DNA of 64,000 nt, taken from positions 17,298 through 81,297 of the IMG/VR virus record IMGVR_UViG_3300043436_004623; one strand, written 5' to 3'. This DNA comes from a virus (lineage: Duplodnaviria; Caudoviricetes). This document shows, piece after piece, positions 55,536 through 63,801 of the stretch; the stretch's first letter is position 1; the number at the start of each line of letters is the position of its first letter. Under the pieces are notes generated by a model. The model worked only from the letters and a program-made list of their open reading frames with translations. It did not search any database and was not told the origin of the DNA. The translations under genes and the position numbers were made by a program.

Positions 55536-56252
55536 TTAGTCTAATATAATATCGTTATCTCTAATTATTTCTTCAGCTTTTTCTCTGAGCATTTTTTTAA
55601 GATTTTTTATTTGTTTATATCCAGCTTTTCTGTTTTTTTCATTTGTTTTATAACCCATGAATTTAGCGACTTCTTCTTCAGGCTTTTCTTCGAAAAATAA
55701 CATTATATAAACAGTATAATGTTCTTCGCTTAATTTTGTCTTTAATAATTCATTTAATTTTTCTATTGCCGAATCAAAATGAATAGTTGTGTCTGGTCTT
55801 GAATCTATTTCTTTTATATGATTCTCCAAAGCAAGGGGTAACTTAATTCCATACCCCGCTTTCTTTTGCTTTGACCATTTAGCATACATGCCGCAAGTTA
55901 AATTTTGACTACCACTTCTAGTCCAAGAACAAAGATTGTCACCCATATTGAACTTGCATTGCATACAAGGCTTGACATAATTAGTATAATTGTTTCTAAT
56001 TATATTTTTAATTTGATTGGAAGCTATGCGAGCTATCCAAGGTTCAAGTGGAAGAGATTGATCCCACATATCCCACTTTTTGTGGATGTGAATTTTAATA
56101 ACCTGCTCTACATCAGAAAAGTCAAACCAATTGATTGCATTTAACTGCCACTTAGATCTAAACTTTCTTATAGTAGCATCAATGATATCGGAATAATCTT
56201 CATATTTATGTTTTTTATTCCCCACTGGTAGATTTCTCGCTAATAAAATCAT
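55536..56252 (-). CDS. Second phage sigma-70-like factor
   Basis: DVEQVIKIHI.KKW..WD...LEPWIARIASNQIKN (region 2), Cys cluster, EEEVAKFMGY HTH; start codon uncertain. Confidence 0.75.
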   Translation of the reverse strand: MILLARNLPVGNKKHKYEDYSDIIDATIRKFRSKWQLNAINWFDFSDVEQVIKIHIHKKWDMWDQSLPLEPWIARIASNQIKNIIRNNYTNYVKPCMQCKFNMGDNLCSWTRSGSQNLTCGMYAKWSKQKKAGYGIKLPLALENHIKEIDSRPDTTIHFDSAIEKLNELLKTKLSEEHYTVYIMLFFEEKPEEEVAKFMGYKTNEKNRKAGYKQIKNLKKMLREKAEEIIRDNDIILD

Positions 56253-59869: not shown

Positions 59870-59976
59870 GTGAAGAACTGCATGACATAGTTGCAAGCGC
59901 CGTGTGCTTTACTACTACGCTTGTAGTAGTATGGCACATTGTGCATAGCATAACTACATTGCCACTGCCTCTGTAA
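59866..59976 (+). CDS. 36-aa hydrophobic peptide
   Basis: ATGA overlap with the previous stop; its stop codon lies in the first bases of repeat element 1. Confidence 0.4.
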   Translation: MSEELHDIVASAVCFTTTLVVVWHIVHSITTLPLPL

Positions 59977-60049
59977 CTCGTTGAGAATGAGTGAGTTACG
60001 GGCGGGGGCGGGGCCGCGCCCCGTAACTCGTTGAAAATCAATGAGTTAT
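59973..60049. repeat. Palindromic repeat element 1 (27-bp palindrome, 23-bp GC core, 27-bp palindrome); core inverted relative to elements 2-4
   Basis: GTAACTC-N13-GAGTTAC, GGGCGGGGGCGGGGCCGCGCCCC, GTAACTC-N13-GAGTTAT. Confidence 0.95.
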
Positions 60050-60165
60050 GTTTTTCGCTTCTTTATCATAAATAATCAATCTGTCAAGAAAAAAGTGCGA
60101 AAAATAAAAAATAAAAAATGAAAAAAGATGTTGCATTTTATCGGTTCCGAGGTTATTCTTTGCGC

Positions 60166-60228
60166 ACGAGCTTCGGGTACTCGCTAAATCACTCTAGAGA
60201 GTTGAGCATCTCTTAAAACTGCTCACCA
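60166..60228 (+). ncRNA. Candidate small structured RNA with H-type pseudoknot
   Basis: Promoter TTGCAT-17-TATTCT (60131-60159) with no ATG downstream; hairpin CGAG/CTCG; pseudoknot AGAGA/TCTCT plus TGAGCA/TGCTCA with loop TAAAAC. Confidence 0.6.
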
Positions 60229-60294
60229 CTTTCCAAGCTGAAAAAAAACGAAAATTTTTCTTGCTACACTCCGAAAATCTGCTAACTTTCTCTC

Positions 60295-60522
60295 ATGACC
60301 AACACCACTACCACCGCCGCCTTGTTCCGCGCCACTAAAAACTTTACTGTTGCTTACTGGCACAGCAAGCACACCACCAAAATCACCAAGGGCGAAACGA
60401 TCATGCCAAACGAAAATTTCCGCATCTTGAATGGCTTCTTCTTCTGGGTTGAGCGCGTGAGCAATGAGCAAACCACGCAAATGACAAAACCCTTGCCAGT
60501 CGAATTGATCGAAGAAATCTGA
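60295..60522 (+). CDS. 75-aa early protein
   Basis: ORF track; own leaderless promoter. Confidence 0.8.
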   Translation: MTNTTTTAALFRATKNFTVAYWHSKHTTKITKGETIMPNENFRILNGFFFWVERVSNEQTTQMTKPLPVELIEEI

Positions 60523-60565
60523 AAATTTTTCTTGCCATTCTCTCAAAATAAACTAACTTTCTCTC

Positions 60566-60700
60566 ATGTCCATTGACCAACTCACCCACACCGATTCAGT
60601 CGAACTGCTCGCCGCATTTCACGAAGCCGCAACGCAAGCCATGTATGAGTGGCAAGCCGAACAAGCCGCCGAATACTTTTCTTCACTTCTTGAAAAATAA
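60566..60700 (+). CDS. 44-aa helical acidic early protein (MSIDQLTHTDSVELL...)
   Basis: Manual translation; own promoter. Confidence 0.7.
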   Translation: MSIDQLTHTDSVELLAAFHEAATQAMYEWQAEQAAEYFSSLLEK

Positions 60701-60741
60701 AAGTTGACGCAACACAAAAAAAATCTTACTCTTTCCCCGAC

Positions 60742-60891
60742 ATGAACACCACCGAATATAAAGAAATGTTTGCCAAGGTTCAAGCTGGCCAAATCACTCA
60801 ACAAGTCTGGTTTGACTACTGCTTCCAACAATTGAGCCAAATCATGGAAGACAACAAGGATGTTTTCATCCGCTTAAAAAATCGCGGATAA
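60742..60891 (+). CDS. 49-aa early protein (MNTTEYKEMFAKVQAGQIT...)
   Basis: Manual translation; own promoter. Confidence 0.7.
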   Translation: MNTTEYKEMFAKVQAGQITQQVWFDYCFQQLSQIMEDNKDVFIRLKNRG

Positions 60892-60965
60892 TAAAAAAAT
60901 AAATTGACACAATCCGAAAAATCTGCCATACTTCTCCCGCAACAATAAACAAAACAAAGCACACC

Positions 60966-61220
60966 ATGAACATAAACTACCAAGCATCCGCACTTGAAAT
61001 CGCAAACGCACTCGTCGGCAAAACCGTTCGCTACTTTGCGAATGATTCCAAAATCAAAAATGATGGCGTTCGCGTCTTCAAAGTTGAAGCAGTCGATCAT
61101 GTTTCGATTGGCAAAAAATCGGGTCGTCGTTATGTCACTATCCTTGCCAAGGATGTTGACGATGGCGGCGAAAGCAAGCATCGCAACCTTCACCTCGCGG
61201 GAATCGATCTCGTGGTGTGA
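60966..61220 (+). CDS. 84-aa beta-rich early protein
   Basis: ORF track; promoter TTGACA-17-CATACT at 60904-60932 and A/C-rich leader. Confidence 0.8.
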   Translation: MNINYQASALEIANALVGKTVRYFANDSKIKNDGVRVFKVEAVDHVSIGKKSGRRYVTILAKDVDDGGESKHRNLHLAGIDLVV

Positions 61221-61258
61221 GTGGTGAAGGGTGCTGGGCATCACACTAAAAGGCCCAC
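61213..61258 (+). ncRNA. Second H-type pseudoknot related to the 60196-60226 one, overlapping a stop codon
   Basis: GTGTGA/TCACAC plus TGGGC/GCCCA with loop TAAAA. Confidence 0.5.
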
Positions 61259-61283
61259 TTTGTCAACCCTAAAAAATAAAAAA

Positions 61284-61448
61284 ATGAAATCCGCCGTTCT
61301 TTGTCTTTTCTTTTCTTCTTTACACATTGCAATTTTTTCGATTGTGCAAGCGTATGACATCATACCACACGATCTAAACTTTATTGTTTTTTGGCTTTGC
61401 CTCGCGTTGACTTGGGCAGGGTGCTTCAAAAGCGCATTGCAAGAATAA
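61284..61448 (+). CDS. 54-aa two-helix membrane protein
   Basis: In frame with ORF 61221..61448; start at ATG after an A-tract; two hydrophobic stretches. Confidence 0.6.
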   Translation: MKSAVLCLFFSSLHIAIFSIVQAYDIIPHDLNFIVFWLCLALTWAGCFKSALQE

Positions 61449-61459
61449 TTTTTCGGGCA

Positions 61460-61505
61460 TGGGTGAAAAGTCGCGCCTCTGTGGTAGGGGGCGCGACTAC
61501 ACCCA
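61460..61505. terminator. Strong GC hairpin ending an early transcription unit (no U-tract)
   Basis: TGGGTG-AAA-AGTCGCGCCTCT/AGGGGGCGCGACT-A-CACCCA. Confidence 0.5.
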
Positions 61506-61511
61506 AAAGTC

Positions 61512-61572
61512 ATAACCGCTTGAAAATGAGCGAGTTACGGGGCGCGGCCCCGCCGCCGCCCGTAACTGTCAA
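61512..61572. repeat. Palindromic repeat element 2 (right palindrome truncated to GTAACTGTCAA)
   Basis: ATAACCGCTTGAAAATGAGCGAGTTAC, GGGGCGCGGCCCCGCCGCCGCCC, GTAACT. Confidence 0.95.
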
Positions 61573-61661
61573 GAAAAAAATGCAATTTTCTGAAAGTTTT
61601 TTTTTCTGCAAAAAGTGAAAATTTTTCTTGCGATATCGCGGGGATGTGATAACTTTCTTGC

Positions 61662-61799
61662 ATGACTGACAGCAACACCACCCCCGACACAGAAAACCAC
61701 AACGGAACTTTCGGCTTGAATGATCGCCCATCTTTCAGCGACAGCGAAGACTTTGGCTTGTTCGGTTGGTTGGGCGAAGAAGAGCAGGAAGAAAAATAA
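61662..61799 (+). CDS. 45-aa acidic early peptide (MTDSNTTPDTENH...)
   Basis: Manual translation; own promoter. Confidence 0.65.
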   Translation: MTDSNTTPDTENHNGTFGLNDRPSFSDSEDFGLFGWLGEEEQEEK

Positions 61800-63083: not shown

Positions 63084-63144
63084 GTAACTCGTTGAAACCC
63101 AGCGAGTTACGGGGCGCGGCCCCGCCGCCAGCCGTAACTGTCAA
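63084..63144. repeat. Palindromic repeat element 3 (right palindrome truncated)
   Basis: GTAACTCGTTGAAACCCAGCGAGTTAC, GGGGCGCGGCCCCGCCGCCAGCC, GTAACTGTCAA. Confidence 0.95.
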
Positions 63145-63704: not shown

Positions 63705-63781
63705 CTAACTCATTGAAAACAAGCGAGTTACGGGGCGCGGCCCCGCCCCCGCCCGTAACTCATTCAAAACCAATGACTTAC
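63705..63781. repeat. Palindromic repeat element 4 (complete)
   Basis: CTAACTCATTGAAAACAAGCGAGTTAC, GGGGCGCGGCCCCGCCCCCGCCC, GTAACTCATTCAAAACCAATGACTTAC. Confidence 0.95.
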
Positions 63782-63801
63782 AGCGGCCCATGTAGTCTAT
63801 T

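What the first reader, a model, noticed from the sequence alone, without database searches (positions are those of the whole stretch)
60131..61258. A promoter-driven non-coding RNA and a second copy of its H-type pseudoknot
Seen: the cassette promoter at 60131-60159 is followed not by ATG but by ~65 nt with a C(UUCG)G-containing hairpin and a pseudoknot AGAGA-gt-TGAGCA-TCTCT-TAAAAC-TGCTCA. At 61213-61258 the same architecture recurs with compensatory changes: GTGTGA-(14 nt)-TGGGCA-TCACAC-TAAAA-GGCCCA, starting on the stop codon of gene 60966. Both are followed by C(C)ACTTT. Inference: a small RNA motif with covariation visible within this one genome, acting for example as a 3' end protector, a protein decoy (toxIN antitoxin RNAs are pseudoknots) or a recoding signal.
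Basis: partly seen in the sequence, partly recalled or inferred. Interest (0 to 1): 0.7.

Follow-up and report, generated by a model that had tools for sequence, protein, structure and literature searches.

The report
Widespread phage gene-boundary RNA pseudoknot
The two look-alike elements are real copies of a tiny 27-base RNA pseudoknot that phages of nearly every bacterial phylum place between their genes, that is in no RNA catalogue I could search, and that most likely acts as a mechanical barrier marking and protecting message ends.

Summary
Both elements exist and are two copies (60199-60225, 61231-61257) of one structured RNA motif. The conserved stem is GUG 61231-33 with CAC 61242-44 and a 1-nt loop, not the GUGUGA that overlaps the stop codon.

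In 20 relatives both stems co-vary. In GTDB genomes 82 of 126 do, across many phyla. Rfam 15 has no match, and I found no paper describing it. Earlier agents of this scan met what reads like the same family on other DNA (not compared by sequence).

The motif is intergenic and co-oriented with genes. It usually starts 6-10 nt after a stop codon, is often upstream of head-scaffold genes, and lies 5' of tRNAs but never 3'. Read-through, frameshifting, a ToxI-like array and preQ1-I membership fail their tests.

Copy 1 lies in a 129-nt insert (weak hairpin, pseudoknot and a second promoter) that a near-identical relative lacks. It is therefore more likely a leader or leftover cassette end than a stand-alone sRNA.

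Function is inferred. The most likely role is a barrier to exonucleases and ribosomes at gene boundaries, resembling coremin/xrRNA pseudoknots.

The parts
60131..60159 (+). Module promoter P1 (TTGCAT-N17-TATTCT).
   Evidence: It is homologous to promoters in L004, L006 and L008 that are followed at once by ATG, i.e. leaderless genes. It did not pass the generic sigma-70 consensus scan.
60165..60293 (+). 129-nt insert relative to contig L004, holding a weak hairpin, pseudoknot copy 1, an A-rich run and a second (cassette) promoter.
   Evidence: In the pairwise alignment, L004 reads ...CTTTGCG|CATGACC, where the window has the insert. The L004 record has only copy 2.
60167..60183 (+). Weak hairpin CGAG/CUCG with an inner C(UUCG)G.
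   Evidence: Energy is -2.7 kcal/mol and z = -0.04. It is invariant in relatives, so there is no covariation evidence.
60199..60225 (+). Pseudoknot copy 1. S1 60199-60201 with 60210-60212 (extendable to 60197 with 60214). L1 U60202. S2 60203-60208 with 60220-60225. Junction U60209. L3 60213-60219.
   Evidence: Relatives L010 and L015 have UGGGC/GCCCA here, a compensatory A-U to G-C change.
60250..60294 (+). Cassette promoter P2 (AAAATTTTTCTTGC-N-CTAACTTTCTCTC), placed directly before the ATG of gene 60295-60522.
   Evidence: It is one member of an 8-copy repeat family D1.
60966..61220 (+). 84-aa gene of unknown function whose stop codon precedes copy 2 by 10 nt.
   Evidence: Homologues were found in 50 loci. 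It has no Pfam, PHROG or PADLOC match.
61231..61257 (+). Pseudoknot copy 2. S1 61231-33 with 61242-44. L1 C61234. S2 61235-39 with 61253-57. Junction A61240 U61241. L3 61245-52.
61284..61448 (+). 54-aa hydrophobic small-protein gene downstream of copy 2.
   Evidence: It is absent in L007, L008 and L018, where the pseudoknot is followed directly by a GC-rich hairpin.
61457..61567 (+). Terminator-like nested hairpin, then a palindrome/GC-core module that closes the gene block.
   Evidence: Sequence read directly; repeat families D3 and I2-I6.

Best explanation
IDENTITY (confidence about 0.95). Both elements are members of a very large, uncatalogued family of 27-nt H-type RNA pseudoknots carried by phages and prophages. 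The consensus is 5'-G N N | C | U R R G C | A U | N N C | N N N A A A A G | G C Y Y A. It has a 3-bp S1 (4 bp in some members), a one-base L1 that is nearly always C (U in copy 1), a 5-6-bp S2, a bulged U at the junction and an A-rich L3. This is the geometry of compact triplex pseudoknots.

MECHANISM (inferred; the confidence given applies to this part). The knot is a self-contained mechanical roadblock on the sense transcript at gene boundaries. It stops processive enzymes that travel along mRNA, namely exoribonucleases and possibly ribosomes. In that way it fixes and protects message ends and insulates neighbouring cistrons.

IN THIS WINDOW. Copy 2 sits 10 nt behind the stop codon of the 84-aa gene, near the end of a block of leaderless early-gene cassettes. 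Copy 1 is the same module inside a 129-nt insert between promoter P1 and its gene. There it lies in a 5' leader, or is the surviving end of a lost cassette.
For: STRUCTURE, SHOWN BY COVARIATION.
- In 20 relatives, 93.8% of cells are paired. S1 is 100% paired and 2 of its 3 pairs co-vary. S2 co-varies at 2 pairs. None of 500 shuffles reaches the observed values, and slid registers give 22-46% pairing.
- A pattern that leaves the inner S1 pairs free and fixes two S2 pairs only to purine/pyrimidine gave 104 of 108 fully paired matches in IMG/VR, against about 8% expected by chance. In GTDB genomes it gave 82 of 126.
- L1 is C in 93% of copies although the pattern left it free.

RNA SENSE.
- The nearest long ORF lies on the motif's own strand in 125 against 39 cases upstream, and 107 against 52 downstream.

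TIES TO GENE ENDS.
- The spacing from stop codon to knot peaks at 6-10 nt and is rarely under 5.
- The median is 11 nt upstream, against 57 nt to the next start.
- In L007, L008 and L018 the knot directly precedes terminator-like hairpins.
- Marine orthologues of the 84-aa gene carry a plain 13-bp GC hairpin at the same place.
- A tRNA starts 4-26 nt downstream in 8 of 219 copies and never lies upstream. RNase P cleavage would therefore leave the knot at a 3' end.

TIES TO 5' ENDS OF ABUNDANT MESSAGES.
- The downstream gene is a head scaffold gene in 20 of 87 cases.
- Some copies of Firmicutes phages follow a terminator U-run at once.

PRECEDENT.
- Coremin and xrRNA-WCC pseudoknots are GUCCGAAGACGUUAAACUAC, with a one-base L1 that must be C or U. 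They stall Xrn1 and ribosomes (PMC10321173, PMC10520033).
- The modal phage sequence is GUCCUGAGCAUGACGUUAAAAGGCUC.

PORTABILITY.
- A near-identical relative lacks the 129-nt insert.
Against: - There are no transcript or degradation data, so the function is inferred from position and resemblance only.
- The direction of protection is unresolved. Contexts before terminators and before tRNAs point to a 3' cap. Contexts after promoters, after terminators and before scaffold genes point to a 5' shield.
- Where a terminator hairpin follows directly, a 3' protector looks redundant.
- The second hairpin (hp2) that coremin needs for Xrn1 resistance is not conserved here: 30% of copies have one, against 24% of shuffles.
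- Many hosts, such as Vibrio and E. coli, lack a 5'-3' exonuclease of the RNase J type (general knowledge).
- Strong sequence conservation across host phyla could equally mean a universal binding partner such as the ribosome or RNA polymerase.
- Nested-fold energies of the window copies are unremarkable, with z from 0 to -0.65.
Confidence: 0.42

Rival explanations
1. A ribosome-directed element. Placed at the mRNA entry channel when the stop codon is in the A site, the knot would tune termination or recycling. Alternatively it would block post-termination or read-through ribosomes from entering the next segment, controlling coupling or re-initiation.
For: The 6-10-nt spacing from the stop codon is the same geometry as frameshift stimulators. 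In Vibrio phage 1.238.A the knot fills the whole 36-nt gap, and its AAGG lies 7 nt before the next ATG. Coremin motifs stall ribosomes (PMC10520033).
Against: More than half of the copies are not near a stop codon. Copy 1, and the Streptococcus phage MissE2 copy, which has no same-strand ORF just upstream, lie in leaders. Most copies have a separate Shine-Dalgarno sequence further downstream. The spacing can also be explained by genome compaction plus a need to stay folded.
Confidence: 0.15
2. A transcription element. This would be a pseudoknot-type leaky intrinsic terminator or pause site, or a cis-acting RNA that modifies RNA polymerase in the way put or EAR antitermination RNAs do.
For: The 9 nt after the knot are T-rich and G-poor: 37% of copies have at least 5 T, against 21% upstream, and G is only 2-8%. 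Placement just after a promoter and again before terminators recalls nut and put sites. RNA polymerase is universal, which would explain the sequence conservation.
Against: Most copies lack a real U-tract. S2 is only 5-6 bp with a 13-nt loop. The generic terminator scan does not flag either window copy. There is no resemblance to put or EAR, and nothing relevant matches in Rfam.
Confidence: 0.12
3. Copy 1 is a stand-alone, promoter-driven small RNA that acts in trans, for example as a protein decoy.
For: A bona fide promoter homologue is followed by non-coding sequence. The unit is conserved in close relatives.
Against: No terminator lies between the knot and the next promoter and gene. A near-identical relative lacks the unit altogether. 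Across the family the motif sits inside mRNAs, not as a separate gene.
Confidence: 0.1
4. A DNA-level feature: a conserved linker for cassette recombination, or a promoter variant.
For: There is a cassette gain/loss polymorphism exactly at this module. Parts of copy 1 resemble the cassette promoter (TTGAGC...AAAACTGCT...ACTTTC; read).
Against: Compensatory changes in two interleaved helices and a strong strand bias relative to genes are not expected of a recombination linker or a duplex promoter.
Confidence: 0.06
5. A very small ligand-sensing riboswitch of the preQ1-I type of fold.
For: It shares the H-type topology and the A-rich 3' loop with preQ1-I. Some copies abut a Shine-Dalgarno sequence.
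Against: There is no RF00522 match at E<=10. There is no conserved alternative pairing downstream: best complementary run 2.08 nt, against 1.85 in shuffles. The neighbouring genes are unrelated to any one pathway. Many copies lie in 3' UTRs in front of terminators or tRNAs.
Confidence: 0.04
6. A recoding signal (stop-codon read-through or frameshift), or a ToxI-like antitoxin RNA.
For: In the window, and in Vibrio phage 1.238.A, the frame stays open from the stop codon into the next gene.
Against: Frame relations are uniform at 21:19:20, with an open path in only 4 of 60 cases. Extensions are short and unconserved, and relatives L006, L012 and L013 have in-frame stops. There are no tandem repeats and no ToxN-like or other defence protein match.
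Confidence: 0.03

Closest known systems
Coremin motif (xrRNA-C) and its Watson-Crick variant xrRNA-WCC, from plant, fungal and insect RNA viruses (PMC10321173, PMC10520033, PMC6546385)
   Same: Both are short hairpins with a GUC/GAC-type 3-4-bp stem. Both have a single bridging base that must be C or U, an A-rich GUUAAA spacer, and loop-to-spacer pairing that gives a compact H-type pseudoknot. The modal phage sequence shares GUCC and GACGUUAAA with coremin. Both lie in UTRs or intergenic regions. Coremin stalls a 5'-3' exonuclease and ribosomes.
   Different: The phage loop is 8 nt (C-URRGC-AU), not YGAD or YGNNAD. S2 is 5-6 Watson-Crick pairs, not 3. The obligatory second hairpin hp2 is not conserved here. 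The hosts are bacteria, which lack Xrn1. Resistance to any nuclease has not been tested. Common descent is very unlikely, so this is a resemblance in how it may work, not membership.
Luteovirus-type compact frameshift pseudoknots (BWYV, PLRV)
   Same: They have similar size and architecture: a one- or two-base L1 containing C, a bulged U at the helix junction, and a 7-nt A-rich loop suited to minor-groove triples. This comparison rests on general knowledge and PMC10321173.
   Different: The stem lengths are reversed: S1 5 bp and S2 3 bp in BWYV, against 3 and 5-6 here. The phage knot follows stop codons, not slippery sites, and no frameshift product is possible.
preQ1-I riboswitch aptamer (Rfam RF00522)
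   Same: It is an H-type pseudoknot of about 34 nt with an A-rich tail, and its 3' strand can overlap the ribosome-binding site.
   Different: There is no covariance-model match. P1 and P2 lengths and loop sequences differ. There is no link to queuosine genes and no expression platform.
Phage T4 gene 32 leader pseudoknot
   Same: It is a compact phage H-type pseudoknot with a one-base L1, sited in an mRNA untranslated region.
   Different: It is tied to one gene and its own protein product. The present motif is found next to unrelated genes and in phages of many families.

Membership tests
Uncatalogued 27-nt phage gene-boundary pseudoknot (as defined here from alignments A4 and A8) | S1 of 3 Watson-Crick pairs (positions 1-3 with 12-14) that co-vary | tested here: met
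   Copy 1 has GAG/CUC and copy 2 has GUG/CAC. Across the family the pairs are GUC/GAC, GCC/GGC, GAC/GUC, GGC/GCC and GUG/CAC.
Uncatalogued 27-nt phage gene-boundary pseudoknot (as defined here from alignments A4 and A8) | One-base L1, either C or rarely U/A, followed by S2 URRGC with GCYYA | tested here: met
   Copy 1 has U, then UGAGC with GCUCA. Copy 2 has C, then UGGGC with GCCCA. L1 is C in 93% of copies.
Uncatalogued 27-nt phage gene-boundary pseudoknot (as defined here from alignments A4 and A8) | Invariant A10 (U11) junction, and AAA at positions 18-20 of an 8-nt L3 | tested here: met
   Both copies have them.
Uncatalogued 27-nt phage gene-boundary pseudoknot (as defined here from alignments A4 and A8) | Intergenic, on the sense strand of the flanking genes, typically 6-10 nt after a stop codon | tested here: met
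   Copy 2 lies 10 nt after the TGA of gene 60966-61220. Copy 1 is intergenic and on the sense strand, but follows a promoter, not an ORF.
Coremin / xrRNA-WCC | hp1 loop consensus YGAD or YGNNAD | tested here: not met
   The loop is C/U-URRGC-AU, 8 nt long, and its second base is U (consensus from PMC10520033).
Coremin / xrRNA-WCC | Second hairpin (hp2) directly after the spacer | tested here: not met
   A hairpin lies within 3 nt in 30% of copies, against 24% of shuffles. Neither window copy has one.
Coremin / xrRNA-WCC | Resistance to a 5'-3' exoribonuclease | not testable with these tools
   This needs an in vitro digestion assay.
preQ1-I riboswitch (RF00522) | Match to the Rfam covariance model | tested here: not met
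   No match at E<=10, either in window 59900-61700 or in a 91-nt slice around a modal copy.
Type III toxin-antitoxin RNA (ToxI-like) | Tandem array of repeats next to a ToxN-type endoribonuclease gene | tested here: not met
   The copies lie 1 kb apart and there is no tandem array. No PADLOC match was found in eight neighbouring proteins.
Recoding stimulator (-1 frameshift or read-through pseudoknot) | Conserved extended ORF, or a fixed frame relation to the downstream ORF | tested here: not met
   Frame relations are 21:19:20, with an open path in 4 of 60 cases. Extensions run 0-90 codons and are unconserved.
Intrinsic terminator | GC-rich hairpin followed at once by a U-tract | tested here: inconclusive
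   The tail is T-rich and G-poor on average. The window copies have only CUUU, and the consensus scan does not call them.

The most novel reading that the evidence does not exclude
DNA phages of nearly all bacterial phyla share a 27-nt, protein-independent 'full stop' for RNA-tracking machines. It would be an exonuclease- and ribosome-resistant triplex pseudoknot, convergent with the coremin xrRNAs of eukaryotic RNA viruses. It would cut polycistronic phage transcripts into segments of different stability, and it would travel between genomes as part of gene cassettes. That would make it the first xrRNA-like element of the bacterial world.
Probability: 0.3. Interest if true: 0.85.

Novelty: new variant of a known kind. 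Interest (0 to 1): 0.68.

Why it matters
A 27-nt motif with two co-varying helices recurs in phages of many hosts: Firmicutes, Bacteroidota, Proteobacteria, cyanobacteria, candidate-phyla-radiation (CPR) bacteria and others. It is absent from Rfam 15 and unannotated in every GenBank phage record I checked. If it is a self-sufficient barrier to nucleases or ribosomes, three things follow.

- It would explain how phages set different expression levels inside long operons, for example portal against scaffold and capsid genes.
- It would extend the xrRNA concept to bacteria.
- It would give synthetic biology a very small insulator part.

It is also a useful annotation landmark for gene boundaries and cassette junctions in uncultured phage genomes.

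Tried and rejected
- **Rfam.** I ran the gathering threshold on the whole window and on 20 loci, and E<=10 on two short slices. Only chance hits came back.
- **BLAST to phages.** BLAST of the 6-kb early region and of a neighbouring structural protein against GenBank phages gave no match.
- **Conserved downstream anti-sequence (riboswitch platform).** It is present only in a Bacillus and Streptococcus phage subgroup. Overall the best run is 2.08 nt, against 1.85 in shuffles.
- **Read-through or frameshift.** Rejected.
- **tRNA-acceptor mimic with ACCA tail.** ACCA follows copy 1 and a handful of others, but positions 28-29 are C in only about 25% of copies.
- **Hammerhead or HDV-like (theta) ribozyme.** CUGA is broken by co-varying S2 variants, and there is no room for P3 and P4. 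This rests on reasoning; no cleavage test was possible.
- **Single-sequence folding.** It is uninformative, because pseudoknots are not modelled.
- **Literature searches.** I searched by sequence word and by topic and found no description. Subscription journals are not covered.
- **Look-up of earlier scan findings by sequence.** It found nothing. The look-up by words did.
Full report
**Setting**

The window is a phage-like contig, and no host genome is held for it.
- Bases 1-58500 are about 30% GC and carry large genes, mostly on the minus strand. These include PhoH, an ERCC4 nuclease and a sigma-like protein.
- From about 58.5 kb the GC content rises to 43-45%. The plus strand there carries 40-85-aa genes. 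Most sit directly behind a conserved promoter cassette, AAAATTTTTCTTGC-N-CTAACTTTCTCTC-ATG, so the mRNAs are probably leaderless.
- No gene in the window has a Shine-Dalgarno sequence.

**The observation**

*Promoter and leader.* The promoter-like site at 60131-60159 is real in the comparative sense.
- In relatives L006 and L008 the same module (CTGTCAAG-A-rich-GATCTTGC...TACTCTTTGGGC) is followed at once by ATG.
- In the near-identical contig L004 it reads ...TATACTTTGCG|CATGACC and drives the orthologue of gene 60295 directly.
- The window has 129 extra bases (60165-60293) at exactly that junction. They hold a weak hairpin, the first pseudoknot, an A-run and a second cassette promoter.
- The L004 record has only the second pseudoknot; the L001 record has both.
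- The stretch after the promoter is non-coding. It reads ACG where relatives have ATG, and close relatives carry a 1-nt indel there.
- The C(UUCG)G hairpin is weak (-2.7 kcal/mol, z = -0.04) and invariant, so nothing supports it.

*The two pseudoknots.* I fetched 50 loci that encode relatives of the 84-aa gene 60966-61220 and read the DNA behind their stop codons.
- The element persists down to 57% protein identity.
- Its conserved form is [NNN]-C-[URRGC]-AU-[NNN']-NNNAAAAG-[GCYY].
- S1 is GUG/CAC in the window's group, AGUG/CACU in L015, GCC/GGC in L006, L008, L018, L022 and L025, and GUC/GAC in L007 and L020.
- S2 is GGGC/GCCC, GAGC/GCUC or AAGC/GCUU.
- An ungapped alignment of 20 copies gives 93.8% paired cells. 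S1 is 100% paired with two of its three pairs co-varying. None of 500 shuffles reaches the observed values, and slid registers reach only 22-46%.
The true arm is GUG 61231-33.
- Copy 1 allows two registers because of its AGAGAG run. The family supports the register with a 1-nt loop.
- Copy 1 itself shows a compensatory A-U to G-C change in L010 and L015.
- A strict scan finds exactly these two copies in the window and none in 200 shuffles. A relaxed scan adds only noise.

**How widespread it is**

- The pattern GNNNTRRGCATNNCNNNAAAAGGCYY leaves the two inner S1 pairs free and two S2 pairs only purine/pyrimidine.
- Of those matches, 104 of 108 satisfy all seven pairs, against about 8% expected by chance. 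The free loop-1 base is C in 93% of copies.
The titles name Flavobacteriales, Bacillus, Streptococcus, Geobacter, Saccharibacteria, cyanobacteria, Chloroflexia, Omnitrophota and others.
- BLAST of a 32-nt modal copy finds it in isolated phages: Streptococcus MissE2 and Javan phages, Nostoc NMeng1, Microcystis Mwe-JY13, Vibrio 1.238.A, crAss-like cr52_1 and cr56_1, Lactobacillus CV244, Enterococcus phiFL4A and Escherichia AV102. No feature is annotated under the match in any of them.
- Rfam 15 has nothing, even at E<=10 on short slices.
- Full-text searches found no description.
- Notes from this scan show that earlier agents met what reads like the same family on other genomes. I had reached the family independently, and I took from one note the lead to the coremin literature.

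**Anatomy**

With A10 pairing U22 (or facing G22), S2 has 5-6 pairs, U11 is a junction bulge, L1 is one base and L3 is 7-8 nt with AAAA at its 3' side. This is the classical geometry of compact triplex H-type pseudoknots. The triples themselves are inferred, not shown.

**Context across 219 non-redundant copies**

- **Strand.** The motif lies on the strand of its neighbouring genes: 125 against 39 upstream, and 107 against 52 downstream.
- **Spacing.** The distance from the preceding stop codon peaks at 6-10 nt and is rarely below 5. The median is 11 nt, against 57 nt to the next start.
- **No recoding.** Frames of the flanking ORFs are related 21:19:20, an open path exists in 4 of 60 cases, and extensions past the stop are short. 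This excludes read-through or frameshifting as the family's function.
- **Neighbouring genes.** The downstream gene is a head scaffolding protein in 20 of 87 cases. Upstream genes are often portal or minor-head genes.
- **tRNAs.** A tRNA begins 4-26 nt downstream in 8 copies and none ends upstream.
- **Tail.** The nine bases after the knot are T-rich and G-poor.
- **No platform or second hairpin.** There is no general downstream anti-sequence and no conserved second hairpin.
- **This lineage.** The knot sits at or near the end of a gene block. In L007, L008 and L018 it directly precedes terminator-like hairpins. Marine orthologues of the 84-aa gene have a plain 13-bp GC hairpin in its place.

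**Interpretation**

*Shown.* This is a structured sense-strand RNA motif. It is portable and tied to gene boundaries.

*Inferred.* It works as a mechanical barrier to enzymes that track along mRNA, fixing and protecting transcript ends and insulating cistrons.
- The closest precedent is the coremin/xrRNA-WCC pseudoknot of eukaryotic RNA viruses. It is GUCCGAAGACGUUAAACUAC, its L1 is restricted to C or U, and it stalls Xrn1 and ribosomes (PMC10321173, PMC10520033).
- The modal phage copy shares GUCC and GACGUUAAA with it. The loop consensus and the obligatory second hairpin are not met, so this is a functional analogy, not membership.
- The polarity of protection is open. Contexts before tRNAs and terminators favour a 3' cap. 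Contexts after promoters or terminators and before scaffold genes favour a 5' shield.
- Rival readings remain possible: a ribosome-directed element, an element acting on RNA polymerase, a stand-alone sRNA for copy 1, a DNA linker, or a riboswitch. They are scored in the report sections.
- A ToxI-like role fails: there is no tandem array and no toxin or defence protein nearby.

**Verdict for the finding**

The thing itself is more general and more interesting than a two-copy curiosity of one genome.

Noticed in passing
window 60165-60293 vs L004:2490-2500: There is a precise 129-nt presence/absence polymorphism between a promoter and its leaderless start codon. The insert brings a pseudoknot and a second promoter. 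It looks like the footprint of cassette gain or loss.
   Followed up: partly
window 59974-60050, 61520-61567, 63085-63139, 63706-63787: Four copies of a palindrome / GC-rich core / palindrome module, each followed by CTGTCAAGAAAAAA and a promoter, divide the early region into blocks. Other notes of this scan already flag them.
   Followed up: no
window 1-58500, minus strand: Many late genes have GTGTAAAT-like words 12-20 nt before the ATG and no Shine-Dalgarno sequence. This may be a late promoter for the phage's sigma-like protein (55536-56252).
   Followed up: no
window ~58500: There is an abrupt GC shift from about 30% to 43-45% between the structural/replication part and the small-gene early region.
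   Followed up: no
L026-L037, about 20-120 nt after the 84-aa homologue: Marine relatives replace the pseudoknot with a 13-bp GC hairpin. It is followed by TTGACA-N17-TATAAT and an ATG 6-7 nt later, so leaderless early genes are shared with this distant marine group.
   Followed up: no
window 60966-61448: Gene 60966 (stop TGA at 61218-20) is in frame, without further stops, with the 54-aa membrane-protein gene at 61284. Relatives have in-frame stops, so this is probably coincidence.
   Followed up: yes
L160 (Vibrio phage 1.238.A) 1496-1531: The whole 36-nt gap between two small early genes of an N4-like phage is the pseudoknot. Its AAGG lies 7 nt before the next ATG, so here the knot may mask the ribosome-binding site.
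   Followed up: partly
L161 (Nostoc phage NMeng1) 1501-1606: The pseudoknot lies 2-3 nt before an annotated pseudo-tRNA. In eight other loci a tRNA starts 4-26 nt after the knot.
   Followed up: partly
L168, L179, L202, L232, L239, L248, L261, L280 (upstream of the knot): Several prophage copies from Deltaproteobacteria and other genomes share an upstream word like TTGTAAAGARGGYTGCA...N about 24 nt before the knot. It may be a lineage-specific promoter.
   Followed up: no
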